A DNA stretch of 64,000 bases from Escherichia phage vB_EcoM_ESCO49: the sequence record OM386663.1; one strand, written 5' to 3'. The notes under the pieces are model-generated. The model ran no database searches. It saw only the letters and a list, made by a program, of their open reading frames with translations, and had not been told where the DNA came from. A program made the translations under genes and the position numbers. Positions 1 to 26,759 of the stretch are shown here, one piece after another; position 1 is the stretch's first letter; the number at the start of each line of letters is the position of its first letter.

Positions 1-463
1 TTCTGATTGGTAATTTAGCCCATCCAATTAGACCATCATCAAATTTAGACTGGTACTTTCCTTTTTTACCCTGTCGCTTCTTATAAACTTTCTCGTTAAC
101 ACAGAATCCATAAGTGCAGAATGACATTACAGAGTTAATAAAATCTGCCCAATCATGCTCCATGTCATCCATTAAAGAATTAAAGAAGTCTGCTCTTTCA
201 AGCATTTTAGGGTCTTGCTCTTTTCCCTTTGGAGGTACGAATCTCCAGTTGACTTTTCTGACAAACATCTTAATAATATTTACAGATGCTGCTACAGCAG
301 GGTCACGCATCATTAATTGGAAAGTTTTAATACTTTCAGGGAACCTTAGTGCCTGACGAGGTTCTTCATAGATTCTTCCATTCTTAACCTTCAGACCCAA
401 AGAACCTACTTCACCCATCCTAAATGGTGGTAAGCTTTCTTGTGTTTCTGTAATATCTGCCAT
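1..463 (-). CDS. putative portal protein, N-terminal part (continues past the window start)
   Basis: Minus-strand ATG at 463..461 behind an AGGTGAG RBS; frame stays open to the window edge (MADITETQESLPPFRMGEV...). Sits directly downstream of the terminase large subunit. Absent from the ORF track because it has no in-window stop. Confidence 0.4.
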   Translation of the reverse strand, partial: MADITETQESLPPFRMGEVGSLGLKVKNGRIYEEPRQALRFPESIKTFQLMMRDPAVAASVNIIKMFVRKVNWRFVPPKGKEQDPKMLERADFFNSLMDDMEHDWADFINSVMSFCTYGFCVNEKVYKKRQGKKGKYQSKFDDGLIGWAKLPIR

Positions 464-479
464 TCTTCTCACCTAGCTA

Positions 480-2096
480 TCAACGTCTAAGCCCCTCATA
501 TGGGTTTCCTCTCACTAAGTCTGTGTGAACACCCATTGATGGTGGCTTGAATAATTTAACTTCATTAAGACTGTTGAAAGCATCACTGGTAGCATCCACT
601 TGGTCATCTTTAGTTTTGCCATCACCACAAAAGCCTTCAAGCTCTTGAAAGTAAGCTTCATTCCAACTACCTCTCAAGACTTTTACAAGTCCAGCTTCAG
701 AAGCAGCAGAAAATCCCGCAAAGCGGGTAACTTTATCTTTATTTGTTGGTTTAGCTCTTGCACGATAGCCTTTCTCGGCAAGTTTCCTGATGAGGGATGT
801 TGCGTAGGATTTACCAGCAGCGCCTGGGTCTTGAGGGATAAAAATACCAGTTCGCTTACCGTCACTTTCAGCAGTCAAATTAATTTGTGTTTCGACTCCA
901 GAGGGTCTATCTCTAAATCTTACTACATCAATGATATAATAGCAACCGTCTTTTTTAGATTTACCCATCTTAACACCTGCTGTCCAGTCTGGATTAGGGT
1001 TAACCTCAGATGGTAAAGTTGCTGCTAAGTCCCATGCTCTAACATCAAATACATCTTCTGGGAGTGAATCAACAATCTCACACCATTGTCTTTGCCAATA
1101 GTTTGAACCTTCTGCACGAGCCTTCCAGTTACCAAAACGAAGTCTTGCAACGTTTACAGGAGTGTTGTTTTCCAACTTACCACGGTACTTAGGTTCTAAG
1201 AAGTCAAGGATTGGGTTATCATCAATCGTACCAGAGATAAAGGTGTATGTTTGAGGAATCTCAAGAGGGAACATTTCAAGAATCTTATCCCTTTCCCAAT
1301 CAGAAACCATCACACCATCATTCATTACATACCAACGAATACGACCACACTTTTCAGGGTCTGGATAACCTTCTTCATCTAAGAATGGTTCTACCCAATC
1401 GTAAATAAAGTGGTCTCTATCTGGGTTCATGGAAATCTTCATGTATGAATCACCTTCAGCACCAGAACGTAGACGGGTTTGTAGGTATGAAATCTGTGAA
1501 GCAGAGAAGTGTGTACCTTCGTCAAAGTAAATAGCTGAGTATTCAATACCCTGATGACCTTCAGCGTGCTTTTCAAGTTCTAGGTAGGTAAACTTGATAG
1601 TTGCCCCAGAAGGGAATGTGATAGTCATTTTCTGCTCGTGAGGAATCCCACCAAACTTACCAAATAGTTTCTTTGCAGCAGGCCATAAACCACCTTGTAA
1701 CTGTGTTGTGTTTCGACGGAAATACACAGCATTATAGTTGGGGTCTTCAATAAATCTTAAAGAGTCCATTAACAATGCGGCAGTCTTACCAGCACCAGCA
1801 GCACCACCATAAAGAACCAAGTCAGCATTAGTGTTTAAAAAAACCTCTTGAGAACCCGGCTGAGGGGCTACATAGTTCTTATCAGTCATCAATTTAAAGA
1901 TGAGGCGAACTTGGTCTGGTGTGTATCTTAATAAAGTCAGAATTTGAGTTGGAAGGAATTTAGAGGGGTCTTTACCGAATGATTTAATAATTTCTTTTAC
2001 TTCATCAGAAAGCCCCAACTCTCCAGCTAGGACTTTCCTAACATCTTCCACTCGCTTCTGCTTAACAGTATTTAAGTCCATTAAGCGCCTCCGCAA
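480..2096 (-). CDS. terL: terminase large subunit
   Basis: 538 aa; Walker A LYGGAAGAGKT near the N-terminus; size and C-terminal acidic nuclease-like region typical of TerL. Confidence 0.8.
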   Translation of the reverse strand: MRRRLMDLNTVKQKRVEDVRKVLAGELGLSDEVKEIIKSFGKDPSKFLPTQILTLLRYTPDQVRLIFKLMTDKNYVAPQPGSQEVFLNTNADLVLYGGAAGAGKTAALLMDSLRFIEDPNYNAVYFRRNTTQLQGGLWPAAKKLFGKFGGIPHEQKMTITFPSGATIKFTYLELEKHAEGHQGIEYSAIYFDEGTHFSASQISYLQTRLRSGAEGDSYMKISMNPDRDHFIYDWVEPFLDEEGYPDPEKCGRIRWYVMNDGVMVSDWERDKILEMFPLEIPQTYTFISGTIDDNPILDFLEPKYRGKLENNTPVNVARLRFGNWKARAEGSNYWQRQWCEIVDSLPEDVFDVRAWDLAATLPSEVNPNPDWTAGVKMGKSKKDGCYYIIDVVRFRDRPSGVETQINLTAESDGKRTGIFIPQDPGAAGKSYATSLIRKLAEKGYRARAKPTNKDKVTRFAGFSAASEAGLVKVLRGSWNEAYFQELEGFCGDGKTKDDQVDATSDAFNSLNEVKLFKPPSMGVHTDLVRGNPYEGLRR

Positions 2097-2102
2097 ATAG
2101 AA

Positions 2103-2303
2103 TTATTCAGAGTCTGTCGCAGTCTCTTCTTTCTTAACTTCGAACTTTTCATCAACAGCATCAAGAAGTGCATCCATAGATGCTTCTTTAATATCAATAC
2201 CTGTTGCTACAGATAATCTATCTGCAATTGCCATGATAGTATTCTGCATAAACTCTAACTTCTTGTTAGCTTCATAAAGTTCTTTATAAACGTTCTCGCT
2301 CAT
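2103..2303 (-). CDS. small hypothetical protein (66 aa)
   Basis: Track ORF 2103..2378 trimmed to the internal ATG at 2303..2301, which has a GGAGA RBS; the upstream part of the track ORF overlaps a terminator hairpin. Confidence 0.4.
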   Translation of the reverse strand: MSENVYKELYEANKKLEFMQNTIMAIADRLSVATGIDIKEASMDALLDAVDEKFEVKKEETATDSE

Positions 2304-2338
2304 TATGTTTTCTCCAAATAATAAATCTTGTTTCCCCT

Positions 2339-2363
2339 TAAAAAAGACGGCACGGAGACCGTC
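2339..2363 (-). terminator. rho-independent terminator at the end of the tRNA transcription unit
   Basis: Hairpin GACGG-CACGGAGA-CCGTC (2346-2363) followed on the minus strand by a U-run (plus-strand A-run 2339-2345). Confidence 0.5.
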
Positions 2364-2525
2364 AAGGAGAAACCACAATGTACGTCAGAGACATACTGTA
2401 TAAGTCTTCCTATAAAGTATAACTCTGTAAAAAAGCCCTGTCTAAAAATACTCTTCGGTAGCGAAAGGAAGAATACTTATAGCAGGGCATTATTATTATT
2501 TTAATTGAGAGAGAGTAAAATAACT

Positions 2526-2601
2526 TGGAGAATCCGAAGGGACTTGAACCCTTATAAACCTGTTTTGCAGACAGGCACATATCCATTTCTGTCACGGATT
2601 C
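2526..2601 (-). tRNA. tRNA-Cys (anticodon GCA)
   Basis: CCA encoded; perfect 7-bp acceptor (2530-2536 with 2595-2601); T-arm AAGGG/ACTTGAA/CCCTT; anticodon stem CCTGT/ACAGG, loop reads CUGCAAA. Confidence 0.75.
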
Positions 2602-2606
2602 GAAAT

Positions 2607-2697
2607 TGGGGGAAGATACCAGACTTGAACTGGTACACCGATTTCTCAGCTACTGGCAGTTTAGCAAACTGCTCCCTTACCTTTAGGGTTAATCTTC
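2607..2697 (-). tRNA. tRNA-Ser (anticodon GCU), type II
   Basis: Perfect acceptor (2611-2617 with 2691-2697); T-arm ACCAG/ACTTGAA/CTGGT; 21-nt variable arm; anticodon loop UUGCUAA. Confidence 0.7.
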
Positions 2698-2699
2698 CA

Positions 2700-3434
2700 T
2701 TATCTCTGTAATGCGCTCTTCATTTCTGGTGTTGCAATAGTATCAATCACACCAGTTTTACAAGCATCATCAAACCAGTCTGGTAAGATACCTGCTAAGA
2801 ACCCATTGATATTCGTTTTAAGGTACTCTGCAATAAGGGCAGCTTCTTCTTCAATCATCTGCACAACTTCATCTGCATAAGCTGTAATCTTTGAGATACC
2901 TTCATTAATCTTACTAACAGCCTGATTAGCTAAATCAGAAACAGTCTCAAGACCCTTATCAATAGCGTCTTGTAAGTCACTTAACACACCATTAACACTG
3001 TCTAGTGTGCTGTTAATCATGTCAATAGCTTGCTGACCATACTCTGTAGCAACACCCATAATACCACTAAATGGTGTACAACCAACTTGTTCTCCTGCTG
3101 CACCCATAACATTGGAGTATCCCTTTGCTACCTGCATACGTGATGAAAACTCATCAATAGACTTTTGACCGTAGTCTGTTAGGGTCTTAGTAGTTGCTGT
3201 AGTGCTTGTAAGGCTTGTTGTAAAGCTGTTTAGAAGGACTGTTGTGAGTCCAGCAGCAACAAGCTTCTCCTTCATTGTAGGGTCTGTTACAGAGCTAATA
3301 GAGCTTACAAGTGATGTAGAGGCAGCTACGGTTCCACCGAGAACTGCTGCACCAGTAATAAGTGGGTTAGAAAACCCTCTACCGGTTTTTAAGAGATTAA
3401 AAATCTCCTTACCTTGTTCTGTCATCTCTTTCAT
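2700..3434 (-). CDS. hypothetical protein (Ala/Ser/Thr/Gly-rich, about 244 aa)
   Basis: Track ORF 2700..3482 trimmed to the ATG at 3434..3432 because the upstream part overlaps a tRNA; low-complexity N-terminal half, helical C-terminal half. Confidence 0.4.
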   Translation of the reverse strand: MKEMTEQGKEIFNLLKTGRGFSNPLITGAAVLGGTVAASTSLVSSISSVTDPTMKEKLVAAGLTTVLLNSFTTSLTSTTATTKTLTDYGQKSIDEFSSRMQVAKGYSNVMGAAGEQVGCTPFSGIMGVATEYGQQAIDMINSTLDSVNGVLSDLQDAIDKGLETVSDLANQAVSKINEGISKITAYADEVVQMIEEEAALIAEYLKTNINGFLAGILPDWFDDACKTGVIDTIATPEMKSALQR

Positions 3435-3450
3435 TAAGCACCTTTGAAAT

Positions 3451-3521
3451 TGGTACTCCATATCGGATTCGAACCGATACATAACACAGATTTTAAGTCT
3501 GGCCTCTCTGCCAATTGGAGT
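3451..3521 (-). tRNA. compact tRNA, anticodon UAA (Leu by anticodon; atypical)
   Basis: CCA encoded; T-arm ATCGG/ATTCGAA/CCGAT; 6 of 7 acceptor pairs; short D-arm; 4-bp anticodon stem, loop CUUAAAA. Fold is non-canonical, so isotype is uncertain. Confidence 0.45.
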
Positions 3522-3531
3522 AATGGAGCAT

Positions 3532-3607
3532 TGGCTGGGGATGTTGGAATTGAACCAACTTCTTCGATTTCAAAGACCGAGGTTTTAACCTTGTAAACTA
3601 ATCCCCT
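3532..3607 (-). tRNA. tRNA-Gln (anticodon UUG)
   Basis: CCA encoded; T-arm GTTGG/AATTGAA/CCAAC; acceptor 3536-3542 with 3601-3607 (1:72 unpaired); anticodon loop CUUUGAA. Confidence 0.6.
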
Positions 3608-3615
3608 TTAAATCT

Positions 3616-4173
3616 TTACTTTCTCAGTGGATGAATAAAGAATGCCAACATAACTCTTTCCCTTGAGAATGCTCTTTCTTCTGGGACAACACTTTTTAGT
3701 TTCCATCCAATATAAATTCTCCAGTAAAACTGTTTACCAAAGATTTTAATTGATGGGATAAAAGCGAATAATCCCCAAGCATTGCTATTCCACATTAGGA
3801 GATAACCAGTCTGATTATCTTCAGGGTCAGAACTTACGCTGATATTACCTTTCCACTTAGTAACATCTTTTACATCTCTTCCTAATACATGGTAAGAGAA
3901 GTTATAAGCTTTGTTTCTCCAGAGCCATCCAACTCTCTGCATGTAGACACCCAGCTTACCAATCTTTCTAATCTTAGCCCATCTTTTAACGTGGCCTTCA
4001 TCACCATCAATCGGGTTGTCATAGGTCTCCATCCATCTGAATCCAAAAGGTAGATGCCCTTTCTTCTCACTGTAGAATGGAACCACGAAAGGTGCTAAGA
4101 TGACTGCTAGGGTTGCTGCAAATGGTTCTAGTAAAGCTAGGAAAATCCATGAAGCATACTTCAAATATCTCAT
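3616..4173 (-). CDS. hypothetical membrane protein embedded in the tRNA cluster
   Basis: 185-aa ORF with a hydrophobic N-terminal segment (WIFLALLEPFAATLAVILAPFVVPF); fills the gap between tRNAs without overlapping them. Confidence 0.35.
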   Translation of the reverse strand: MRYLKYASWIFLALLEPFAATLAVILAPFVVPFYSEKKGHLPFGFRWMETYDNPIDGDEGHVKRWAKIRKIGKLGVYMQRVGWLWRNKAYNFSYHVLGRDVKDVTKWKGNISVSSDPEDNQTGYLLMWNSNAWGLFAFIPSIKIFGKQFYWRIYIGWKLKSVVPEERAFSRERVMLAFFIHPLRK

Positions 4174-4192
4174 CTAAATAGCCTCTTAAAAT

Positions 4193-4270
4193 TGGTGTTC
4201 CAAGACGGATTCGAACCGTCACTAATACAAGGTTTGAGCTTGCATCCTCTGCCAATTGGGATACTGGAAC
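4193..4270 (-). tRNA. tRNA with anticodon CAA (Leu by anticodon; short variable arm)
   Basis: CCA encoded; T-arm GACGG/ATTCGAA/CCGTC; acceptor 4197-4203 with 4264-4270 (one G-U); anticodon stem 5 bp including G-U, loop CUCAAAC. Confidence 0.55.
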
Positions 4271-4271
4271 A

Positions 4272-4346
4272 TGGTACTCACTAAAGGACTTGAACCTTTT
4301 TCTTCATCTTGTAAGGGTGATGTTTTACCATATAAACTAAGCGAGT
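4272..4346 (-). tRNA. tRNA-Val (anticodon UAC)
   Basis: CCA encoded; T-arm AAAGG/ACTTGAA/CCTTT; acceptor with one mismatch; anticodon loop CUUACAA. Confidence 0.6.
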
Positions 4347-4441
4347 GTGAAAGAGGTCTGAAGTTGTGCCGCTAACTCAACTCCGTGGAATTTGTTACGG
4401 TCTTCAGTTGACACCAGCGGTCTTTCACTTGACCTCTGAAT

Positions 4442-4518
4442 TGGTGCTGCTCACAGGACTCGAACCTGCATTTCCATCCTTACAAGGGATGTGTAATAGC
4501 CAATTATACGAAAGCAGC
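4442..4518 (-). tRNA. tRNA-Thr (anticodon UGU)
   Basis: CCA encoded; T-loop ACTCGAA; perfect anticodon stem CATCC/GGATG, loop CUUGUAA; acceptor 6 bp plus G-U. Confidence 0.7.
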
Positions 4519-4524
4519 ATTATT

Positions 4525-4599
4525 TGGAGCATCCAGAGGGAATCGAACCCTCAACCTCAGTTTGGAAGACTGTAATTTTCCCGTTTAAACTATGGATGC
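4525..4599 (-). tRNA. tRNA-Gly (anticodon UCC)
   Basis: CCA encoded; perfect acceptor (4529-4535 with 4593-4599); T-arm GAGGG/AATCGAA/CCCTC; anticodon loop CUUCCAA. Confidence 0.7.
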
Positions 4600-4605
4600 A
4601 CTAAT

Positions 4606-4681
4606 TGGTGGAGAAGCAGGGAATTGAACCCTGTACTTAAGTTTGCAAAACTTATGTTTTAACCATGTAAACTACATCCCC
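4606..4681 (-). tRNA. tRNA-Ala (anticodon UGC)
   Basis: CCA encoded; T-arm CAGGG/AATTGAA/CCCTG; D-stem GUUU/AAAC; perfect anticodon stem UAAGU/ACUUA, loop UUUGCAA. Confidence 0.7.
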
Positions 4682-4687
4682 AATGTT

Positions 4688-4763
4688 TGGTACAGGTGGA
4701 GGGAATTGAACCCATCGTCTTACTGATTAAGAGTCAGCCGCATAACCATTTTGCTACACCTGC
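4688..4763 (-). tRNA. tRNA-Lys (anticodon CUU)
   Basis: CCA encoded; acceptor GCAGGUG/CACCUGU with G1-U72; T-loop UUCAAUU; anticodon stem GCUGA/UCAGU, loop CUCUUAA. Confidence 0.6.
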
Positions 4764-4770
4764 ATTAATT

Positions 4771-4847
4771 TGGTACACCTAGAGAGATTCGAACTCACAC
4801 TGAGCAGATTCTAAGTCTGCTGCCTCTACCAGTTGGGCTATAGGTGC
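4771..4847 (-). tRNA. tRNA with anticodon UAG (Leu by anticodon; short variable arm)
   Basis: CCA encoded; T-arm GAGAG/ATTCGAA/CTCAC; perfect anticodon stem GCAGA/TCTGC, loop CUUAGAA; canonical D-loop AACUGGUAG; 5-nt variable region. Confidence 0.6.
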
Positions 4848-5102
4848 ATTAAACCTTTTTAGAGAACTTCTAAGAACCTAAGCAACAAGGTTCCACAACA
4901 AGCCGTAATAACCTTAGAAGCCCTCTAAAAAGACCTAAAAAGGTCTTTGCATAGTCTTGTTTAATCCGGTGACTAGAACCTTTGGAGAGCTTGATATTAT
5001 CTCTTCTCCGTGACACCTGCTAGGTGCTTTATGAGTGTGTACGACAATACACGCGGGATACCAAAGCAACACCCTAATGAAGCTTGGCTTTAAATCTTAT
5101 TA

Positions 5103-5192
5103 GGCGGTAAGTAAAGGAGTCGAACCCTCACCGTATCTCTACAGTGGCAACTGTTTTCAAGACAGTTTGGCTACCATTAGCCGCTACCTACC
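5103..5192 (-). tRNA. tRNA-Ser (anticodon UGA), type II
   Basis: Acceptor GGUAGGU/ACUUACC; 3-bp D-stem; perfect anticodon stem ACUGU/ACAGU, loop CUUGAAA; about 20-nt variable arm; T-loop UUCGACU; 3' end CC without the final A. Confidence 0.65.
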
Positions 5193-5205
5193 CCTAATAA
5201 GACTT

Positions 5206-5288
5206 TGGCATGGGACGGAGGAGTTGAACCCCTTTGAAACGGTGTTGGAAGCCGTTGCTCATGCCTTAGAGTCTTAACATCGTCCCAT
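5206..5288 (-). tRNA. tRNA, probably Trp (anticodon CCA), 80 nt with enlarged D region
   Basis: CCA encoded; perfect acceptor (5210-5216 with 5282-5288); T-loop AGTTGAA; best anticodon loop UUCCAAC; D region is about 7 nt longer than canonical. Confidence 0.45.
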
Positions 5289-5431
5289 ACTATAATTCGA
5301 AGCTTACCGTATTATCTCAACACTGTAAAGCCCCTTCTCAGATTATTTACATGTTCTGGAAAACATGAGATACAGACCACCTCCCTACAGGAAGACCCGC
5401 TTAGGTCGTCTAAGTAATCTGCTAACTAAAT

Positions 5432-5518
5432 TGGTCGAGGCGGCAGGACTCGAACCCGCATACTCCACTTACTCGGTTAACGTCTGTTTAGAAGACAGAT
5501 GAGATACGCCCCGTAATT
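5432..5518 (-). tRNA. atypical tRNA-like gene (anticodon-type loop UCU; canonical D-arm not foldable)
   Basis: CCA encoded; good acceptor CGGGGCG/CGCCUCG and T-arm GCGGG/UUCGAGU/CCUGC; perfect hairpin UCUGU/ACAGA with loop CUUCUAA; only 7 nt where the D-arm should be and 23 nt between that hairpin and the T-arm. Confidence 0.4.
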
Positions 5519-5850
5519 ATCTTTAAAGACTCTCTTAGAAAGCCCTTAAAGATGCCCACCTTATTAATCATACCGTGGGCTAGTACGCCAAATTCTTTGA
5601 TGAGGGATTGGAAGACCTCACTGGTGTTTAGCCTATCAAGCTACTGCCAGAAAAACATTGTCGTTTGCATTTATTTTAAATTTGCAAAATAGACGCTACG
5701 CAACGAAAACTATTCAGAATATGTACAACAAATTTCCCCACATTGTGTTACGTCTAACGCTCATGTATTGGTGTTTGAATTATACATATTATGAAGTATT
5801 TTAGTTACTATAAAGTGGTCACATCTCAATGTCAACAACTTTATTGAAAT

Positions 5851-5926
5851 TGGTACTGGTAGGTGGAATCGAACCACCGACGTTCCCTTATCAGGGGAGT
5901 GTTATAACCTTCTTAACTATACCAGC
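5851..5926 (-). tRNA. tRNA-Ile (anticodon GAU)
   Basis: CCA encoded; perfect T-arm GGTGG/AATCGAA/CCACC; acceptor with G1-U72; anticodon loop CUGAUAA. Confidence 0.65.
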
Positions 5927-5927
5927 T

Positions 5928-6004
5928 TGGAGGTTCAGATGGGAATCGAACCCACATTCATAGGGCTTATGAGACCCTTGCATTACCTTATCTGCGACTG
6001 AACC
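5928..6004 (-). tRNA. tRNA-Met (anticodon CAU; elongator-type, or Ile2 if lysidinylated)
   Basis: CCA encoded; perfect acceptor (5932-5938 with 5998-6004); T-loop AATCGAA; anticodon stem AGGGU/GCCCU, loop CUCAUAA. Confidence 0.65.
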
Positions 6005-6008
6005 ATTT

Positions 6009-6084
6009 TGGTAGAAGTGGAGGGACTCGAACCCATCGCCTGTCAGATTAAAAGTCTGCCACATCACTATTCTGCTACACTTCC
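6009..6084 (-). tRNA. tRNA-Lys (anticodon UUU)
   Basis: CCA encoded; T-loop ACTCGAA; acceptor with G1-U72; anticodon loop CUUUUAA. Confidence 0.6.
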
Positions 6085-6278
6085 ATTAAATTATCTTTGT
6101 AGATAAGCTACCCAGACTTGCTTAAGGTCTGTAGCGATGTGACTTTTTGGGTTTAAATCTAGAATTTACCCTTTCACCCTTTGTGGTCGCATACTCACAG
6201 GTAAGCTTAATAACTTATCTACAAAGATAATTACCAGACCATTGTTTATCATCTTAACTAGATATCTCATAAAGTGTT

Positions 6279-6366
6279 TGGTGTGCCGTGTAGGAGTCGA
6301 ACCTACCGAGTCTCAATGACAAGGGATTTACAGTCCCCACCGCTACCATCTACGGGATAACGACAC
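6279..6366 (-). tRNA. tRNA-Tyr (anticodon GUA), type II
   Basis: CCA encoded; perfect T-arm GTAGG/AGTCGAA/CCTAC; 3-bp D-stem; anticodon stem GGGGA/UCCCU, loop CUGUAAA; about 15-nt variable arm. Confidence 0.6.
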
Positions 6367-6435
6367 ATCTAATTTCTATTCAGGCTAAGGACTTGCACCT
6401 TACAAATCGGTGAGTAATCGCTTCTCTCCTAAATT

Positions 6436-6512
6436 TGGCGGTTAGTCAGGGATTCGAACCCTGTGCCATTCGCTTAACAGGCGACCGCACATACCTTATG
6501 TGCTTCCTAACC
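6436..6512 (-). tRNA. tRNA-Asn (anticodon GUU)
   Basis: CCA encoded; perfect T-arm CAGGG/ATTCGAA/CCCTG; acceptor 6 bp; anticodon stem UCGC/GCGA, loop CUGUUAA. Confidence 0.6.
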
Positions 6513-6597
6513 ATGTTTAGTATTACCAGACCGTATCTTTCAATTTTTTCTGCTAAAAATTTAATAAATATTGCTGTAAACGGTCTTCTGTAAAATT

Positions 6598-6674
6598 TGG
6601 AGGCGGGTGCAGGAGTCGAACCTGCCGATACCATGCTAATGAGACATGTGAGACGCCCTTTCTCTATACCCGCA
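6598..6674 (-). tRNA. second CAU-anticodon tRNA (Met, fMet or Ile2)
   Basis: CCA encoded; perfect T-arm GCAGG/AGTCGAA/CCTGC; acceptor 6 bp with 1:72 unpaired; anticodon stem CAUGU/GCAUG, loop CUCAUUA. Confidence 0.6.
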
Positions 6675-6804
6675 ATTCTTAATGACCAGACCAAATCTCT
6701 TCTTTGTCCGATTTACCTTCAGATGAATAAGATTAAGTTTGCTGTAATTGGTCTTCTGTCAAAACTGGCGTTCCAGAAGGGATTTGTCTACTGGAACATT
6801 AATT

Positions 6805-6881
6805 TGGTCTCTGTTGGAGGACTTGAACCTCCGGCCTTACCGCCCCAAACGGAACGCTCTACCAAGCTGAGCTAAACAGAG
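6805..6881 (-). tRNA. tRNA-Pro (anticodon UGG)
   Basis: CCA encoded; perfect acceptor (6809-6815 with 6875-6881); perfect T-arm GGAGG/ACTTGAA/CCTCC; anticodon loop UUUGGGG. Confidence 0.65.
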
Positions 6882-7045
6882 ATAAACTTTTCAAACTCTA
6901 TGTAACCACTTTAACACTATTTTTTAGTGGCTGTCAAGAACTTTTTTAAAATATTTTCAGTATCTTAGAAAAGCTCTCGTTTCGTTTCTATGTAGAACAT
7001 ATTAAAGGGTATTAAACACATTGTCAATACCCTTTTTAAAACTTT

Positions 7046-8461
7046 TTACCAGATATAACGGTCAATCATTACTGCTTTGAGCATTACGCTGATTGGGTCA
7101 AACTTCTCACCACCAAGCAGAGCTTTTAAAGTAGCTGGAGAGAAACCAGATACCATTGCTACACCGTTATCCTTAACAGATACTTCGCAAGTACCATTAC
7201 GGTTTGCTAAGTACCAGAATACCAGTTGTGGCATCTCATATCCAGCTTTTTTGTACTTACTCTGAATTTCTTCAAAGTTTGTACGACCGTTAGCTCCATC
7301 AACCTGATTGAACTCCATATCGGAGAATATGATAAGCTTACTTGGCATATCTTTCTGAGTCAAGTTATTTCTTTTACCTGTCTCAAGAATGCGGTCAAAA
7401 GCTGCTTGTAAGTTAGTTGAGCCATATTCAACGTGTCGCATCACCTGACGATGACGGTTTTGTAAATCACCACTCAGTTCGATGAAGTGAGGGTTTGTTG
7501 AATAAACCATCAACTCATTCTTAAAGCAACCTGTATTACGTTCTGCTACATACAAGGCAAGTGATACACCAATATCAAGAGCAGTAATTGAACCAAAATT
7601 CACCCAAGACATTGAGCCTGAAACATCAGACATACATAAGATGTTTTCACCTTCTGCCATCCAGTTTGGTAGTGCCTTCCACTGCTCATTAGCAACATCT
7701 GCATCACCATACTTAACAGATTTAATCACATCATATGGGTAAACAGCACCAGCATTAATCTTAGCCTCACCCTTTGATAAGGACTCTATGTAGGCTTTGT
7801 AGCGTTCTCCATCCTTACGGTTAAACAGCTTTTGGTAACGTGCAGCAGCAAGTGAAGGAATCTTACTGTAGTCAATCTTACCAAACTCGTTAGCAGAGAT
7901 TTTTTGCTCAACTGTATCAGAGAGTGCAGACAACAGTGTGCGGTACTCTTTCTCACTCAAGTTGGCAAACTTGCAGAAACGTTTTACAAACTGCTTATGA
8001 CGTGGTTTGACTCGTGGTAACCACTTGGCTGCCAAACCTGCTGTTGCAGGGTCTAGTAATGCTGCTTCTAAATGCTTGAAGGTATCTGTCTCAAAACGAG
8101 TACCTACGAAGATTTTGAAGTCATCAAAACGACCAAGTTCTGCAATCTTATCCATAATGCGAAGAACCTGTGTAGGCTCTAAAACTTTATCTTCAATCGC
8201 TTGAAGCAAAACAGTTCTGAAGGCTTTACGCTCACCCATACCTTCTCGTACATCTCGCATATGAAGCAAAATACGAACTGCAACATCAACATCCTCACGC
8301 AAAGCTTTGTAGAACAGGTCTGGTAAGAATTCTACATTGCTACGGCTTGAACCAGCAGCTTTGTAAAAGTCTACAAGAGCAGACATTGATGAAGTATGGT
8401 TTACAGCACCATTTTCAGTTCGACCTGCATGAAGGTGCGCATGTTTAAATAACTCGCTCAT
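7046..8461 (-). CDS. vWA-domain protein with MIDAS motif (possibly TROVE/Ro60-like)
   Basis: 471 aa; DxSGS MIDAS motif in ILCMSDVSGSMSW and a second vWA strand LIIFSDMEF; N-terminal about 270-aa helical domain; sits next to the tRNA cluster. The TROVE assignment is recalled architecture, not an alignment. Confidence 0.5.
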   Translation of the reverse strand: MSELFKHAHLHAGRTENGAVNHTSSMSALVDFYKAAGSSRSNVEFLPDLFYKALREDVDVAVRILLHMRDVREGMGERKAFRTVLLQAIEDKVLEPTQVLRIMDKIAELGRFDDFKIFVGTRFETDTFKHLEAALLDPATAGLAAKWLPRVKPRHKQFVKRFCKFANLSEKEYRTLLSALSDTVEQKISANEFGKIDYSKIPSLAAARYQKLFNRKDGERYKAYIESLSKGEAKINAGAVYPYDVIKSVKYGDADVANEQWKALPNWMAEGENILCMSDVSGSMSWVNFGSITALDIGVSLALYVAERNTGCFKNELMVYSTNPHFIELSGDLQNRHRQVMRHVEYGSTNLQAAFDRILETGKRNNLTQKDMPSKLIIFSDMEFNQVDGANGRTNFEEIQSKYKKAGYEMPQLVFWYLANRNGTCEVSVKDNGVAMVSGFSPATLKALLGGEKFDPISVMLKAVMIDRYIW

Positions 8462-8542
8462 ATTTTACTCTCTTCTCTCATTTGTTGTTTGATGTGACAG
8501 ACTCTAGAGTAACTTTGTAGAGCCTGTCAACATCTTTTAAAA

Positions 8543-8914
8543 TTATTTTTTGAGAGTCGCTACAGCAGAGAACGTTGGTTTGTTATCTGTCTGAGACTGA
8601 CCACCGTTATCAGAGGTCTTCTTAGTGTCTGCTGCAAGTGCTTTCATCTCACCTGCTGAGTGAGTAAAGATGGTTTTACCGACCTCAATCATGCTCTTGA
8701 TGGTTACGTCATCTGTGTTTAACCCGAACTCTGCAAGCTTAGCAGCGTCCCTTGTAACAATCGCTTCAAACAACTTTGCAGCAAACTCAGCAGAATTATC
8801 AATGGTCAGTTGAGCTTTTACGAGAGAGCTTTTGTTACGGGAGCCTTTTGGTCTTCCAGATGGGTTTCCAGACTGGCCTTTTTTAAACTGGCCTTTGTTT
8901 GTTCTGTTTTTCAT
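8543..8914 (-). CDS. hypothetical protein with basic Gly/Pro-rich N-terminus
   Basis: 123 aa; N-terminal KGQFKKGQSGNPSGRPKGSRNK motif, helical remainder. Confidence 0.5.
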   Translation of the reverse strand: MKNRTNKGQFKKGQSGNPSGRPKGSRNKSSLVKAQLTIDNSAEFAAKLFEAIVTRDAAKLAEFGLNTDDVTIKSMIEVGKTIFTHSAGEMKALAADTKKTSDNGGQSQTDNKPTFSAVATLKK

Positions 8915-8954
8915 TGGTATGCCTCTTATAAGACCTCTTAAAAGGCTTTTAAGA

Positions 8955-8990
8955 TAAAAGATAGATATCCAGAAAGATATCTATTTAAAT
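8955..8990. promoter_or_regulatory. palindromic operator-like site in a divergent intergenic region
   Basis: Inverted repeat TAGATATC-N6-GATATCTA between the divergent genes ending at 8914 (minus) and starting at 9164 (plus). Confidence 0.3.
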
Positions 8991-9163
8991 AGCCTTTTTA
9001 GAGGAACCTTTTAAGTTATCTTCTAAGTATTTATAAGCCTATACCTTGTCAAGTGCTTTGTCAACAACTTTTTTAACTTGCAATAGTTCTTGACTTGTTG
9101 TATGGATTACTGTACCATCTTACTTAAAGCTGTAGGTCTGCCTTGTTCTACAAAGGAGACTTA

Positions 9164-9325
9164 ATGAGAAAATCAAATAAACCGAAGAAAGGTAAGAATA
9201 CCAATCACTGTAAGGAATCAAAAAGGGTAGAATTAATCTACTATTCATCCTCTGAAATTGGTCTGTACCTGTTCTTTCAAAATTACAGAAGACAAGAGGA
9301 TTATCTATGTGTAGTTCCCAATTAG
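9164..9325 (+). CDS. small basic hypothetical protein
   Basis: Track ORF 9143..9325 trimmed to the second ATG, which follows an AGGAG RBS. Confidence 0.35.
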   Translation: MRKSNKPKKGKNTNHCKESKRVELIYYSSSEIGLYLFFQNYRRQEDYLCVVPN

Positions 9326-9540
9326 AAATCGCAGATATTATAGACTTATATCAAACTGCAAAGAGTCATGGCTATATAACCTCAATTGGAAAGAATAGTC
9401 ACTATGATGCTTTGACTGGAATGTATTTCAGGGCAATGGCTCAATCTAGTGAACAACACTTAATGGTTTCTTCCAGTGAGTTTACTTCGTTTCTCTATTG
9501 CAGCAAAATTATAAACCGCAGGAGAACTGAAAAATGTTAA
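9307..9540 (+). CDS. hypothetical protein
   Basis: 77-aa ORF with AGAGGA RBS; start overlaps the upstream stop. Confidence 0.4.
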   Translation: MCSSQLEIADIIDLYQTAKSHGYITSIGKNSHYDALTGMYFRAMAQSSEQHLMVSSSEFTSFLYCSKIINRRRTEKC

Positions 9541-10124
9541 CAGTAAGTTTTAATTACAATAGTGATGGCTCTGTATCAATTAATTCACCGTATGCAAATG
9601 ACCTATTGAAAGAGTTAGTTAATCAGTGCTGTAGAGGTCTTCACTATGTCCCAACTTCTTTTAAACAGAAGACTATTGCTAATAACTTGATGCGTATAAC
9701 AGTGACGACATCGAATCCAAATTATAACTTTGATAGTGAAAGTCCGTACTCATTAGTTGCGCTTGGAGAGAGCAGCCAATTCAAACTTGTTTGCCACGAC
9801 TCAGAAACATTTCTTAAGGTATTTTCCAGCCTTATCCATAATAATAAGTACAGCTACGTTGATGGTAGTGTAAACTTCTATCCAGCAAACTATACATGTT
9901 TGTTGGTTGATAATATGCGAAAAAGTAAGCAAGAGCCTACAAAAATTTCATTTGATGTGAACTCTAGTCCAGACGCAGAAACAAGTAAGAACTTTGATAT
10001 GAGTTACGCATTGTCACTCAGTAAGAAATCCGAGTTCATTGATTATGTCAATGGATTTGGTTTTAAGTTTGATGAGAGTATGAATCTTAAAAAACTTAAG
10101 AACCTACTTAAGACCAAAACTTAA
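9534..10124 (+). CDS. hypothetical protein
   Basis: 196-aa ORF with AGGAGA RBS; followed by a hairpin terminator. Confidence 0.5.
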   Translation: MLTVSFNYNSDGSVSINSPYANDLLKELVNQCCRGLHYVPTSFKQKTIANNLMRITVTTSNPNYNFDSESPYSLVALGESSQFKLVCHDSETFLKVFSSLIHNNKYSYVDGSVNFYPANYTCLLVDNMRKSKQEPTKISFDVNSSPDAETSKNFDMSYALSLSKKSEFIDYVNGFGFKFDESMNLKKLKNLLKTKT

Positions 10125-10171: not shown

Positions 10172-10546
10172 ATGCAAGCTAAGAGTGCAAAAGACTTTTA
10201 TTGCTTCCTACAAACCTATATCAATTCCGTGCAAAATGGTGAAAGGTACAACCTTAATGATGTTATCCCAACACCTTTGACATGGAGGCTTGATAAATGG
10301 CCTGAAGTAGAAATTACACCAACAAGCGAACAGTGTACCTACAATCCTGAAATCAATCTTCCAGACTCTGAGAATCTATTATATCCAATGTTCCATATTG
10401 TTGGTCTTGGAAGATTTCTTATGGATATCCAGTATGTAATTGGTAAAGATTATAAGGTTAAAGGTATTGTTGTTGGTGATGTATCTCCGCATCACAAAGG
10501 TTATTTTAGACTAAACGCACATTTAGAGGCTAAAAGAAATGATTAA
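10172..10546 (+). CDS. hypothetical protein, paralogous to the N-terminal domain of the next gene
   Basis: 124 aa; shares a conserved block with the 10539..11672 product (FLMDIQYVIGKDYKV versus FFMDLQYAIINDKDV). Confidence 0.5.
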   Translation: MQAKSAKDFYCFLQTYINSVQNGERYNLNDVIPTPLTWRLDKWPEVEITPTSEQCTYNPEINLPDSENLLYPMFHIVGLGRFLMDIQYVIGKDYKVKGIVVGDVSPHHKGYFRLNAHLEAKRND

Positions 10547-11672
10547 AGCAAAGACTTACCCAGACTTCAAAGAGTTTGTGAATGGCTTCGTTGCAAATGT
10601 AAAGGCTGGTAAGAGATATGATTTTAGAACATATCAGGAGGCTATTTTACCGCTTACCTATAGTTCATATTGGCCTGAAGCTGATATTGCAGAAGTTGAG
10701 GAGTTTGACTACGAGCCAGACTACAAAGTTCCATTTAGTGATGAGTTGCTTTACAGCATCGGTGCTCAAATGAGGACTTCTGACTTCTTCATGGACTTAC
10801 AATATGCAATTATCAATGATAAAGACGTTGATACGGTTTATTGTGAATGGTTGGCAAGAGTTAAACCATTCTCAATGCTGAATGCTAAGTTGAAGGATGC
10901 TATCAAGCCACCAGTAATCACTCAGCAGCCAACTAATCAAACAGTAAATGAAGGTGGTACACTTACCCTAAGTGTTGTTGCAACGAATGCTACTGGATAT
11001 CAATGGAAAAAGGATGGTGAGGATATCACTAGTGCCACATCTGCAACCTACACCAAAGAAAGTGCAACCACTGCTGATGCTGGTTCTTATACTTGTGTTG
11101 TGTCTGGAGAGGCTGGTACAAGTGTTACCTCAGATGCGGCAACAGTCACTGTCAACGCACTGCCTGTGATTACACAGCAACCTTCTAGCCAGACCATCAA
11201 TGAGGGTGGAAACATCAGCTTGGAAGTGACTGCAACAGGTGCAACAGGCTATCAGTGGAAGAAAGATGGTTCTGACATTCCTTCGGCTACAGAGGCCACC
11301 TATAGCAAGTCTGGTGCGCTTCCAGCAGATGCAGGTTCATATACTTGCGTTGTAACAGGTGCAGGTGGTTCTGTGGAATCTGATGCTGCAACAGTTACTG
11401 TGAACGCACTTCCAGTAATTACTCAACAGCCAACCAATCAAGAAATCACTGAAGGTGATACCTTAACGCTGAGTGTTGAGGCAACTGGTGCAACAGGTTA
11501 CCAGTGGAAGAAAGGTGAGGAAGACATCCTCGATGCAACTGCTGCAACTTACACCAAAGAAGATGCAACCGCTGCTGATGCAGGAAGCTACACCTGTGTA
11601 GTTACTGGTGCAGGTGGCTCTGTAACATCTGATGCAGCAACAGTTACAGTTAACCCAGCAGGGGAGGCATAA
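10539..11672 (+). CDS. protein with three tandem Ig-like repeats
   Basis: 377 aa; three near-identical about 82-aa repeats (PVITQQP(T/S)NQ...ATGYQWKKDG...AGSYTCVV(T/S)G...DAATVTVN) typical of an Ig I-set-like fold. Confidence 0.6.
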   Translation: MIKAKTYPDFKEFVNGFVANVKAGKRYDFRTYQEAILPLTYSSYWPEADIAEVEEFDYEPDYKVPFSDELLYSIGAQMRTSDFFMDLQYAIINDKDVDTVYCEWLARVKPFSMLNAKLKDAIKPPVITQQPTNQTVNEGGTLTLSVVATNATGYQWKKDGEDITSATSATYTKESATTADAGSYTCVVSGEAGTSVTSDAATVTVNALPVITQQPSSQTINEGGNISLEVTATGATGYQWKKDGSDIPSATEATYSKSGALPADAGSYTCVVTGAGGSVESDAATVTVNALPVITQQPTNQEITEGDTLTLSVEATGATGYQWKKGEEDILDATAATYTKEDATAADAGSYTCVVTGAGGSVTSDAATVTVNPAGEA

Positions 11673-26741: not shown

Positions 26742-26759
26742 TTAACAATCTCCTGAAAT

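What the first reader, a model, noticed from the sequence alone, without database searches (positions are those of the whole stretch)
7046..8461. vWA/MIDAS protein with large helical N-domain next to the tRNA cluster
The architecture (about 270-aa helical N-domain followed by a vWA domain with intact DxSGS MIDAS) resembles Ro60/TROVE-family RNA-binding proteins, which bind misfolded or tRNA-like non-coding RNAs. The gene sits 160 bp from the last tRNA, and the cluster contains structured non-tRNA spacers that could be partner RNAs. The TROVE assignment is from recalled architecture only.
Basis: inference. Interest (0 to 1): 0.55.

Follow-up and report, generated by a model that had tools for sequence, protein, structure and literature searches.

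The report
Phage Ro60-like protein with partner RNAs
This Felix O1-type phage gene encodes a ring-shaped Ro60-like protein already shown in a near-identical phage to defeat a bacterial defence nuclease, and I find that it travels, here and in very distant phages, with small hairpin RNAs carrying the same signature as an RNA class thought to exist only in social amoebae.

Summary

This is largely known. The protein is 96% identical to Bas63 gp130, reported in 2024 as Ro60-like, next to tRNAs, and a counter to the Ppl defence nuclease, even when moved alone into T7.

What appears new: the family is genomically coupled to small RNAs of the form G-N5-WW-ACAGCAA-(30-45 nt)-N5-C-UG. A covariance model built without Ounavirinae sequences finds 84 hits in 1.45 Mb, all on the gene's strand. 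Of 72 non-Ounavirinae hits, 49 lie within 500 nt of the gene (P about 3e-40). All six stem pairs covary. The window has exactly two copies (6753-6687 and 6585-6527), set between tRNA-Pro, tRNA-Met and tRNA-Asn. Architecture and motif match Dictyostelium Class I RNA, which Rfam's model detects (best 36.1 bits, E 0.0036). In mycobacteriophages one module encloses a YrlA-type tRNA-like domain.

Most likely this is a Ro60/Y-RNA-like particle of a distinct lineage. RNA binding is inferred, not shown.

The parts
8501..8530 (-). Promoter-like site for the gene (TTGACA-18-TAGAGT), between the upstream DUF5681 ORF (8543-8914) and the start codon
   Evidence: Consensus scan, 10/12 match. Consensus match only; function not shown.
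7046..8461 (-). Gene for the 471-aa Ro60-fold protein of the DUF2828+DUF7788 family (PHROG 850); ortholog of Bas63 gp130
   Evidence: 96% identical (454/471) to bas63_0130 with the same synteny.
7652..8461 (-). N-terminal helical domain (residues 1-270) that superimposes on the Ro60 HEAT-repeat ring
7097..7642 (-). vWA domain (residues 274-455, Pfam DUF7788); its closest sequence relative outside the family is the Ro60 vWA domain
   Evidence: Pfam E 8e-44. hhalign against a TROVE-protein alignment: probability 88%, E 3e-6, 131 columns. Ro60/TROVE chains make up 4 of the 8 weak PDB profile hits.
7613..7627 (-). MIDAS motif D279-V-S-G-S283 (with T349 and D381 elsewhere in the domain)
   Evidence: Invariant columns in alignment A1.
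7004..7035 (-). Conserved hairpin (AAAGGGTA...TACCCTTT) just after the stop codon, overlapping the -35 box of the next promoter; possibly a weak terminator for the gene
   Evidence: Terminator-like scan; conserved across genera. Function not tested.
6908..7027 (-). Two tandem near-consensus sigma-70 promoters (TTGACA-17-TAATAT at 7027..6999; TTGACA-18-TAAAGT at 6937..6908) driving the tRNA/small-RNA array
   Evidence: Hexamers invariant across Felixounavirus, Mooglevirus and Suspvirus (alignment A3); scan.
6805..6881 (-). tRNA-Pro(UGG), first gene of the array
   Evidence: ARAGORN and Rfam.
6687..6753 (-). Module M1: Class I-like small RNA, GACCAA-UU-ACAGCAA...UUGGUC-UG, 51 nt after tRNA-Pro and 12 nt before tRNA-Met
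   Evidence: Model R1, built without Ounavirinae sequences: 28.6 bits, E 3.1e-5 in 64 kb. Rfam Dicty_Class_I_RNA 19.7 bits. Motif scan.
6598..6674 (-). tRNA-Met(CAU) between the two modules
6527..6585 (-). Module M2: Class I-like small RNA, GACCGU-UU-ACAGCAA...ACGGUC-UG, 12 nt after tRNA-Met and 14 nt before tRNA-Asn
   Evidence: R1: 36.2 bits, E 2.3e-7. Rfam Dicty_Class_I_RNA 21.4 bits, E 0.097 in a local search.
2526..6881 (-). Co-oriented array of 19 ARAGORN tRNAs plus one more Rfam tRNA (5435-5513), interspersed with three ORFs and conserved non-tRNA RNAs
5514..5835 (-). S6: strong promoter (5835..5807, 11/12) followed by a roughly 290-nt structured non-coding RNA; relation to the protein unknown
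   Evidence: z -5.05. The 3' 200 nt are 90-95% conserved across genera. Three compensatory base pairs and no credible ORF.
4347..4441 (-). S9: 95-nt conserved hairpin RNA between tRNA-Thr and tRNA-Val; it goes with tRNA arrays, not specifically with the gene
   Evidence: z -2.96. 96-98% identity across genera. 81% copy in Vequintavirinae phage TH18, which has no DUF2828 gene within 7 kb.

Best explanation
The gene encodes a ring-shaped nucleic-acid-binding protein with the Ro60 fold (helical HEAT-like ring closed by a vWA/MIDAS domain). It belongs to a sequence lineage of its own, DUF2828+DUF7788. It is an accessory, early-promoter-driven counter-defence gene. Its 96%-identical ortholog, Bas63 gp130, neutralises the E. 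coli Ppl system, a 3'-to-5' single-strand DNA exonuclease that senses 3'-OH ends. I propose that in the phage the protein works as a Ro60/Y-RNA-like particle. Its cognate RNAs would be the roughly 60-nt modules M1 and M2. Each has a 6-bp terminal stem of free sequence starting with G, followed at once by an unpaired ACAGCAA, and ends in C-UG. The modules are transcribed from the two promoters just downstream of the gene, as part of the tRNA precursor. Processing of the flanking tRNAs 12-14 nt away would then release them. By analogy with Ro60, the stem-plus-ACAGCAA element would dock on the protein, while the central hole takes single-stranded 3' ends. This would shield phage nucleic-acid ends from 3'-to-5' exonucleases such as Ppl, or occupy those enzymes, and might also handle damaged or misfolded tRNA-like RNAs. 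What is shown: the fold, the family, orthology to an experimentally tested counter-defence protein, and the statistical gene-RNA coupling with covariation. What is inferred: physical binding of the RNAs, their excision, and the end-capping mechanism. The confidence given is for the composite. Taken separately, I put fold and family at about 0.95, orthologous anti-Ppl function at about 0.75, the protein-RNA partnership at about 0.6, and the end-capping mechanism at about 0.3.

For: Function of the ortholog: deleting Bas63 g130 gives tiny plaques on a Ppl host, and complementation rescues this. gp130 from a plasmid or inserted into T7 restores T7 plaques on the Ppl host (PMC11482910). Orthology is 96% identity with identical synteny. 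Ppl is an ssDNA 3'-5' exonuclease triggered by 3'-OH ends (PMC12904381).

RNA coupling: the strict motif occurs 43 times on the gene strand, 0 times on the opposite strand, and about 0.7 times in shuffles. Model R1, with Ounavirinae excluded from the seed, finds only M1 and M2 in the 64-kb window (E 2.3e-7 and 3.1e-5). Over 1.45 Mb it finds 84 hits, all on the gene strand, in 49 of 84 non-Ounavirinae loci. It finds none in a genuine-TROVE locus or in a tRNA array without the gene. Of 72 non-Ounavirinae hits, 49 lie within 500 nt of the gene, where only 6.7% of the flanking sequence lies (P 3e-40). All 6 stem pairs covary: 99.4% of cells are paired against 60% in shuffles, and no shuffle of 500 reaches the observed covariation.

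Link to Y RNA: in five Lclasvirinae genera the gene is followed by three such modules plus a terminator, and the middle module encloses a YrlA-type permuted tRNA-like domain (Rfam YrlA 39.3 bits, E 2.4e-5; 20 of 56 pairs compensatory). L021 has YrlA-like hits beside its modules. In Listeria phage CKA15 the homolog's best HHpred hit is Rsr, and highly transcribed non-coding regions lie within 2 kb upstream (PMC12282133).

tRNA context across the family: 325 of 325 tRNA/tmRNA genes in 78 loci are on the gene's strand, with about three times higher density downstream than upstream.
Against: gp130 alone rescues T7 on the Ppl host. T7 carries none of these RNAs, so phage-encoded modules are not needed for the one phenotype that has been measured, unless host RNAs substitute.

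There is no biochemical evidence that any DUF2828 protein binds RNA. The N-domain shows no detectable sequence homology to TROVE, so Ro60's RNA-contact residues cannot be mapped onto it.

By my count from the table, 35 of 84 non-Ounavirinae loci show no module at E<=0.01; some of these loci are truncated near the gene. About a quarter of hits lie 5-9 kb away, in several loci near tRNA-Met or tmRNA genes, so the RNAs could belong to the tRNA module and not to the protein.

Only two negative-control loci were available. The seeds were chosen for base pairing, and alignment A8 is fitted to the model, which inflates the percentage of paired cells.
Confidence: 0.55

Rival explanations
1. Protein-only inhibitor. 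The Ro60-like protein blocks Ppl, and perhaps other nucleases, on its own. It would do so by direct protein-protein contact through the MIDAS face or by capping DNA ends. The ACAGCAA modules would be unrelated passengers of the tRNA array.
For: gp130 expressed alone from a plasmid or from the T7 genome restores T7 growth on the Ppl host. The MIDAS residues are invariant across the family, and MIDAS sites typically bind acidic residues of partner proteins (established knowledge of vWA domains). The CKA15 homolog was detected in purified virions (20 peptides, 57% coverage), which would fit a protein injected with the DNA. Some modules lie kilobases from the gene, near tRNA or tmRNA genes.
Against: This does not explain why 49 of 72 module hits sit within 500 nt of the gene (P 3e-40), on its strand, in phages of Proteobacteria, Firmicutes and Actinobacteria whose other neighbours differ. 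It also does not explain why cluster L mycobacteriophages keep a gene / three modules / terminator unit in loci where at most one tRNA gene (tRNA-Tyr) is annotated within a few kb.
Confidence: 0.25
2. Classical Ro60-type RNA surveillance. The particle's main role is RNA metabolism: tethering or restraining a host exoribonuclease such as PNPase, or quality control of phage tRNA and tmRNA transcripts and of tRNAs cleaved by host anticodon nucleases. Under this view the anti-Ppl effect is secondary.
For: Thermus phage phiRo60 binds two Y-like RNAs and host PNPase and attenuates the nuclease (PMC12135203). Bacterial rsr lies in an RNA-repair operon induced by damaged tRNAs (PMC7790460, listed). 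The family sits at the head of tRNA arrays. tmRNA genes recur 4-7 kb downstream. RtcB and RNA ligase lie downstream in CKA15, and RNA ligase plus PTH2 lie upstream in L091, L020 and L027. A genuine TROVE Ro-like gene in Streptomyces phage Jada is also embedded in a tRNA array.
Against: RNA-repair genes are nearby in only about 5 of 85 loci. The only measured phenotype is against a DNA exonuclease. In my own ARAGORN scan, 40 of the 75 non-Felix viral loci (L007-L081) had no tRNA or tmRNA gene in their flanks.
Confidence: 0.3
3. The ACAGCAA hairpins are cis-acting elements, such as processing signals, attenuators or terminators for the gene or the tRNA precursor, and not trans-acting partner RNAs.
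For: They lie directly up- or downstream of the gene and, in this window, 12-14 nt from tRNA ends.
Against: They occur on either side of the gene and in one to four copies. They lack U-tracts, and in mycobacteriophages a separate terminator follows them. They have their own promoters here. An invariant unpaired heptamer next to a freely covarying stem is the signature of a protein-recognition site. The same architecture in Dictyostelium is an abundant stand-alone cytoplasmic RNA (PMC7919456).
Confidence: 0.1
4. An ordinary vWA adhesion or structural protein with no nucleic-acid role; the tRNA adjacency is a coincidence of phage genome layout.
For: Many database records call it only a vWFA protein or hypothetical protein.
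Against: The N-domain matches the Ro60 ring specifically. Every one of 325 nearby tRNA/tmRNA genes is on the gene's strand. The RNA-module coupling is strong. The deletion phenotype is specific to one defence system.
Confidence: 0.02

Closest known systems
Bas63 (Escherichia phage JohannRWettstein, MZ501086) gp130, a counter to the Ppl defence system
   Same: Ortholog: 454 of 471 residues identical, same length, same upstream DUF5681 gene, and tRNA-Pro 165 nt downstream. Already described as structurally similar to Ro60 and lying directly upstream of tRNAs, with the suggestion that some tRNA genes may be Y RNAs (PMC11482910).
   Different: The window protein has DVSGS where Bas63 has DVSSS, so the DxSxS motif is kept. 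The paper looked for partners among annotated tRNAs. The candidate partners found here are unannotated modules between the tRNAs. The anti-Ppl activity has not been tested for this phage.
Ro60 / Rsr / phage phiRo60 (TROVE family, Pfam PF05731 + PF25045) with Y RNAs
   Different: No TROVE signature. About 70 residues shorter (471 aa against 538 for Xenopus Ro60 and the Jada TROVE protein). The RNA recognition motif differs: ACAGCAA next to a 6-bp stem, instead of the GNCGAA bulged helix of YrlA. RNA binding has not been demonstrated.
Dictyostelid Class I RNAs (Rfam RF01414)
   Same: Length 42-65 nt. A roughly 6-bp terminal stem whose sequence covaries. An invariant 5' G paired to a 3' C that is followed by UG(U). 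The unpaired motif CCUUACAGCAA directly after the 5' stem strand. A variable A/U-rich remainder (PMC7919456; Rfam consensus). The curated model detects phage modules at 36.1 bits (E 0.0036), 30.8, 27.9, 21.4 and 19.7 bits.
   Different: All phage hits are below the family's gathering score of 41.5. There are two rather than three nucleotides between the stem and ACAGCAA, and the loops are longer. The phage RNAs are transcribed from bacterial-type promoters or tRNA precursors, not from DUSE promoters. The named direct binder in Dictyostelium is an RRM protein (CIBP/Rnp1A). Common descent versus convergence is unresolved.
YrlA (Rfam RF02553), bacterial Y RNA with a tRNA-like domain
   Same: In cluster L mycobacteriophages and in L021, RNAs with the permuted T-arm/D-arm module lie beside the gene.
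   Different: No YrlA-like match in this window even at E<=10. Where present, the tRNA-like domain is enclosed by the ACAGCAA stem and not by the YrlA Ro-binding helix. Chen et al. 2014 searched only TROVE-annotated genomes.

Membership tests
DUF2828/DUF7788 family (Pfam PF11443 + PF25043; PHROG 850) | Matches to both Pfam models above their gathering scores | tested here: met
   PF25043 149.9 bits (cut-off 27.1) and PF11443 102.4 bits (cut-off 29). phrog_850 E 5e-184 over the full length.
Ro60/TROVE family | TROVE domain sequence signature (Pfam PF05731) | tested here: not met
   No hit at E<=1. hhalign of the N-domain against a TROVE alignment gives probability 1.6%. A genuine TROVE phage protein scores 127 bits in the same scan.
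Ro60/TROVE family | Helical repeat ring plus vWA domain in the Ro60 arrangement (fold) | tested here: met
Ro60/TROVE family | vWA domain with MIDAS, related to the Ro60 vWA (PF25045) | tested here: inconclusive
   The MIDAS is intact and invariant. hhalign to the TROVE-protein vWA gives 88%, E 3e-6. Pfam, however, assigns the sister model PF25043 and not PF25045.
Ro60/TROVE family | Binds Y RNA and the 3' ends of misfolded RNAs | not testable with these tools
   Only genomic coupling to small RNAs is shown. Needs EMSA or CLIP.
Ppl counter-defence proteins (Bas63 gp130 type) | Orthology to the tested protein | tested here: met
   96% identity over 471 aa and identical synteny.
Ppl counter-defence proteins (Bas63 gp130 type) | Restores plaque formation on a Ppl-expressing host | not testable with these tools
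   Shown only for Bas63 gp130 (PMC11482910).
Class I RNA (Rfam RF01414), for modules M1 and M2 | Score at or above the curated gathering threshold (41.5 bits) | tested here: not met
   M2 21.4 bits and M1 19.7 bits. The best phage module scores 36.1 bits, E 0.0036.
Class I RNA (Rfam RF01414), for modules M1 and M2 | 5' G, 6-bp terminal stem with covariation, adjacent unpaired ...UUACAGCAA, 3' C-UG, about 60 nt | tested here: met
   Alignments. Covariation in all 6 pairs, with the terminal G:C in 78 of 80 sequences. Feature list from PMC7919456.
YrlA / bacterial Y RNA (Rfam RF02553), in this window | tRNA-like T/D module plus a Ro-binding helix near the gene | tested here: not met
   No match at E<=10 in 4300-7100 or at E<=1 in 1-10000. 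Met only in relatives: Jubie 39.3 bits, L021 38 and 34.8 bits, all below the gathering score of 69.

The most novel reading that the evidence does not exclude
DUF2828 Ro60-like proteins and Class I-type ACAGCAA RNAs form an ancient ribonucleoprotein, distinct from Ro60/Y RNA, that is shared by phages of at least three bacterial phyla and by eukaryotes. On this reading the abundant Class I RNAs of Dictyostelium, so far considered unique to social amoebae and of unknown mechanism, are the Y-RNA equivalents of a DUF2828 protein. One candidate is the uncharacterised pull-down protein DDB_G0281243. The phage version would be a counter-defence particle whose small RNAs gate or target a ring that binds nucleic-acid ends.
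Probability: 0.2. Interest if true: 0.9.

Novelty: new variant of a known kind. Interest (0 to 1): 0.72.

Why it matters
The protein itself is not new. Its Ro60 likeness, its position next to tRNAs and an anti-Ppl phenotype are in a 2024 preprint, and databases already call relatives "RNA-binding" or "Ro-like". The addition is a concrete, testable partner: a small RNA with a fixed heptamer next to a covarying stem, encoded beside this gene family in 709 isolated phage records' worth of lineages and in metagenomic phages, with two copies in this window.

If the pairing is real, three things follow.

1. DUF2828, a large domain-of-unknown-function family, gains an RNA ligand and becomes a second lineage of Ro-type particles.
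2. There would be a reason why these genes sit at the head of phage tRNA arrays, since the partner RNAs are made and released by the tRNA processing machinery.
3. It links phages to Dictyostelium Class I RNAs, an abundant RNA class that affects development and whose mechanism has been open since 2004. This suggests a direct experiment: test whether a DUF2828 protein binds them.

It also matters for phage engineering, because gp130 can be moved between phages to overcome Ppl.

Tried and rejected
(1) By eye I saw N-terminal motif similarities to TROVE (TxNGA...SS...LVDFF against NNAGGF...S...LERFL, and RxGxGER against GGWGRAKR). hhalign on the N-domains gave probability 1.6% and a different alignment, so I dropped the idea.

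(2) The length-conserved 164-nt spacer after the gene looked like the best Y-RNA candidate. It is two tandem promoters.

(3) I looked for canonical YrlA, ROOL, GOLLD or tmRNA in the window's array and found none, even at E<=10. There is only a weak tmRNA-model hit in S6 (15.4 bits against a gathering score of 47).

(4) The tRNA-like element in S7 (about 5205-5290) gets only 16.9 bits on the tRNA-Sec model, and ARAGORN calls it only at lowered thresholds and in a different register. I treat it as a degenerate tRNA-like remnant.

(5) S9 as a partner RNA: it also occurs in a Vequintavirinae tRNA array with no DUF2828 gene within 7 kb, so it goes with tRNA arrays and not with the protein.

(6) RNA-repair genes as conserved neighbours: found in only about 5 of 85 loci.

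(7) Identity of Dictyostelium DDB_G0281243: the AlphaFold-database libraries were unavailable, Avesson 2011 is not held, and literature searches gave nothing.

(8) My own dinucleotide-shuffle script hung. I used the built-in shuffles instead.

(9) The PDB sequence search with the single protein found nothing relevant.

(10) Ring geometry could not be computed because model coordinates are not exposed.
Full report
THE OBSERVATION. The window is a Felix O1-type myovirus (Felixounavirus), 96-98% identical to phages ESCO50, finno and LF82P2. ORF 7046-8461 on the minus strand encodes 471 aa. A 49-sequence alignment of homologs down to 40% identity (A1) shows an invariant MIDAS (D279, S281, S283, T349, D381). 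It also shows many invariant basic or aromatic residues in the N-terminal half. The AlphaFold2 model built on that alignment is confident (pLDDT 87.7, pTM 0.87). It is helical from residue 28 to 263 and adopts a vWA fold from residue 274. The gene lies 164 nt upstream of tRNA-Pro, the first of 19 ARAGORN tRNAs (plus one more found by Rfam at 5435-5513), all on the same strand. So the description in the finding is accurate.

WHAT WAS ALREADY KNOWN. The PhageMaP preprint (PMC11482910) reports several things about Bas63 gene 130.
- It counters the Ppl defence system. The deletion gives tiny plaques on a Ppl host, and complementation rescues this.
- gp130 is structurally similar to Ro60.
- The gene lies directly upstream of the tRNA genes, some of which "are possibly Y RNAs".
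- gp130 alone, from a plasmid or inserted into T7, restores T7 growth on the Ppl host.
bas63_0130 has the same length and the same synteny as the window ORF and is 454/471 identical to it. [quoted passage not shown] It is activated by nucleotide depletion and by 3'-OH ends made by phage homing endonucleases (PMC12904381). Independently, a multi-omics study of Listeria phage CKA15 found that CKA15_055 has Deinococcus Rsr as its best HHpred match. That gene lies on the same strand just downstream of the tRNA genes, and its protein is present in purified virions. It also sits within 2 kb of three very highly transcribed non-coding regions, which the authors suggested might be Y RNAs (PMC12282133). 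I confirmed that CKA15_055 is DUF2828+DUF7788. SEA-PHAGES annotates the mycobacteriophage members as "Ro-like RNA binding protein".

GENOMIC CONTEXT ACROSS THE FAMILY. The family is large: more than 3,486 hits in the protein collection and 709 isolated-phage records. These span Felixounaviruses, Vibrio T4-likes, and Campylobacter, Listeria, Staphylococcus, Enterococcus, Bacillus and Mycobacterium phages, plus Lak megaphages. In 78 non-Felix loci, all 325 tRNA/tmRNA genes within 10 kb are on the gene's strand. Their density is about three times higher downstream than upstream. tmRNA genes recur 4-7 kb downstream. A genuine TROVE Ro-like gene in Streptomyces phage Jada is likewise embedded in a tRNA array. 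RNA ligase, PTH2 or RtcB genes are nearby in only about five loci.

THE SPACERS. The 164-nt spacer after the gene holds two tandem near-consensus sigma-70 promoters. Their hexamers are invariant across three Ounavirinae genera. The gene has its own promoter-like site at 8530-8501. Other spacers are strongly structured and more conserved between genera than the protein gene. S6 contains a promoter (5835-5807) followed by a structured RNA with three compensatory base pairs and no credible ORF. S9 is a 95-nt hairpin that also occurs in a Vequintavirinae tRNA array without the gene. No YrlA, ROOL or GOLLD RNA is detectable in the window.

THE PARTNER-RNA CANDIDATE. The lead came from mycobacteriophage Jubie. 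Its DUF2828 gene is followed by a 381-nt gap containing a full-length YrlA-like match (39.3 bits, E 2.4e-5) with the permuted T-arm/D-arm module. Aligning that gap across five Lclasvirinae genera showed three tandem stem-enclosed modules plus a terminator. Each module begins GUGGAC-NNNN-ACAGCAA and ends NNNN-GUCCAG, and 20 of 56 predicted pairs carry compensatory changes.

The window's spacers S2 and S3 have the same architecture and the same heptamer: GACCAA-UU-ACAGCAA...UUGGUC-UG at 6753-6687, and GACCGU-UU-ACAGCAA...ACGGUC-UG at 6585-6527. Of 16 ACAGCAA occurrences in the 64-kb window, only these two have a closing stem.

Across all loci the numbers are as follows.
- A loose definition gives 138 modules on the gene strand and 16 on the opposite strand, with about 35 expected for both strands from shuffles.
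- A strict definition gives 43 on the gene strand, 0 on the opposite strand and about 0.7 in shuffles.
- A covariance model built from 35 seeds, with all Ounavirinae sequences left out, recovers exactly M2 (36.2 bits, E 2.3e-7) and M1 (28.6 bits, E 3.1e-5) in the window. The next hit has E 2.7.
- Over 1.45 Mb the model gives 84 hits at E<=0.01, all on the gene's strand. By my count from the table, 49 of 84 non-Ounavirinae loci and every Ounavirinae locus have at least one hit. There are none in the TROVE control locus or in the tRNA array that lacks the gene.
- 49 of the 72 non-Ounavirinae hits lie within 500 nt of the gene, where only 6.7% of the flanking sequence lies (binomial P 3e-40).
- On the 84-hit alignment all six stem pairs covary. 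99.4% of cells are paired against 60% in shuffles and 29-52% in slid controls, and 208 cells carry double changes against 59 expected.
The last result comes with a caveat: the seeds were chosen for pairing and the alignment is fitted to the model.

RELATION TO DICTYOSTELIUM CLASS I RNA. Rfam's Dicty_Class_I_RNA model weakly hit exactly M1 and M2. Its consensus, GaUcuC-CUUACAGCAAU...GagAuC-UG, matches the phage consensus feature by feature: the 5' G, the 6-bp stem, the unpaired motif directly after the stem, and the 3' C-UG. On other phage modules it reaches 36.1 bits (E 0.0036 over 58 kb and 4,227 families), 30.8 bits and 27.9 bits, against a gathering score of 41.5. Kjellin et al. describe Class I RNAs as follows (PMC7919456).
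- They are 42-65 nt long.
- They have a covarying 6-bp terminal stem and an invariant 5' G.
- An 11-nt motif lies next to the 5' stem strand.
- They are unique to Dictyostelia.
The preprint version lists four pull-down proteins: GuaB, NdkC, the RRM protein CIBP, and DDB_G0281243 of unknown function. I could not establish whether DDB_G0281243 is a DUF2828 protein. Chen et al. 2014 searched for Y RNAs only in genomes annotated with a TROVE protein. None of the top-listed papers containing the motif concerns phages.

MECHANISM. The supported steps are the Ro60 fold, orthology to an anti-Ppl protein, and statistical coupling to a covarying small RNA with an invariant unpaired heptamer. The inferred steps are these. 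M1 and M2 are transcribed from the promoters at 7027 and 6937 as part of the tRNA precursor. Processing of the tRNAs 12-14 nt away releases them. The protein binds the stem-ACAGCAA element as Ro60 binds the Y RNA stem. The ring takes single-stranded 3' ends and so shields them from Ppl-type 3'-5' exonucleases, or occupies those enzymes. The main argument against an obligatory RNA partner is that gp130 alone rescues T7 on the Ppl host. The RNAs may therefore tune or redirect the protein without being needed for that particular activity.

VERDICT. The protein is already known as Ro60-like and as a counter-defence factor. The Class I-like RNA partner class, and its link to an amoebal RNA family, appear to be new and are directly testable.

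Noticed in passing
L092 5428-5979 (Listeria phage CKA15, OR088597.1 about 26,195-26,746): A full-length ROOL RNA match (Rfam RF03087, 90.1 bits, E 4.7e-17, just under the gathering score of 99.1). It coincides with the region 26,236-26,727, which the CKA15 paper reports as the most transcribed in the phage (up to 67% of phage reads) and annotated as three small ORFs. The paper never mentions ROOL.
   Followed up: partly
window 5514-5835 (-): A strong promoter (TTGACA-17-TATAGT) followed by a roughly 290-nt structured non-coding RNA (z -5.05). Its 3' 200 nt are 90-95% conserved across genera. It has three compensatory base pairs in one hairpin and no credible ORF. There is a weak tmRNA-model hit (15.4 bits). 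Function unknown.
   Followed up: partly
window 4347-4441 (-); L087 7001-7084: A 95-nt hairpin RNA between tRNA-Thr and tRNA-Val, 96-98% conserved across Ounavirinae genera and unannotated in 259 records. An 81% copy lies in Vequintavirinae phage TH18 directly after tRNA-Gly. The 7-bp terminal stem is kept through a G:C to U:A change, and a 27-nt core is identical.
   Followed up: partly
window about 5205-5290 (-): A tRNA-like element in spacer S7: an 8-bp acceptor-like stem, a T-arm GGGGUUCAACUCCUC, a 9-nt anticodon-like loop and a 3' GCCA. It is 89-96% conserved across genera and is not called by ARAGORN or Rfam at normal thresholds (tRNA-Sec model 16.9 bits).
   Followed up: partly
window 5435-5513 (-): A tRNA found by Rfam (33.4 bits) but missed by ARAGORN. 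Relatives (finno, Bas63) annotate a tRNA-Arg between tRNA-Ile and tRNA-Ser, which is probably the same gene. Compared with finno and Bas63 the window lacks tRNA-Glu, tRNA-Asp, tRNA-His, tRNA-Phe and one tRNA-Gln.
   Followed up: no
window 6085-6278 (-): Spacer S5 folds with a 23-bp closing stem around a multibranch interior (z -3.87). It contains ...AAUGGUCUGGUAAU, which looks like the 3' half of a longer ACAGCAA module that is intact in finno (L001). This is probably a deletion remnant at the place where relatives carry tRNA-Asp.
   Followed up: no
L022, L028, L033, L037, L041, L048, L051, L021, L077: Phage-encoded tmRNA genes recur about 3-7 kb downstream of the DUF2828 gene on the same strand. 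Class I-like modules lie near the tmRNA or tRNA-Met genes in L028, L033 and L037.
   Followed up: partly
L088 8001-9440 versus L087 (TH18): The same PRPP synthetase / NAPRTase / tRNA-array layout occurs with the DUF2828 gene and three modules in L088, and without either in TH18. The gene and its RNAs seem to come and go together as a cassette.
   Followed up: partly
L070 8253-8443: A sub-threshold group I intron match (40.9 bits against a gathering score of 50, E 4.8e-7), next to tRNA genes upstream of the DUF2828 gene.
   Followed up: no
window 10539-11672 (+): A 377-aa protein with three tandem repeats of roughly 95 aa (each ending ...DAGSYTCVV...SDAATVTVNALPVITQQP), annotated in relatives as a putative tail protein or immunoglobulin-like domain protein. 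It is followed by the lysin gene.
   Followed up: no
window 8543-8914, 3616-4173, 2700-3482 (-): The upstream neighbour is DUF5681. Two ORFs embedded in the tRNA array are DUF7338 and DUF7217. All are of unknown function and conserved in relatives.
   Followed up: no
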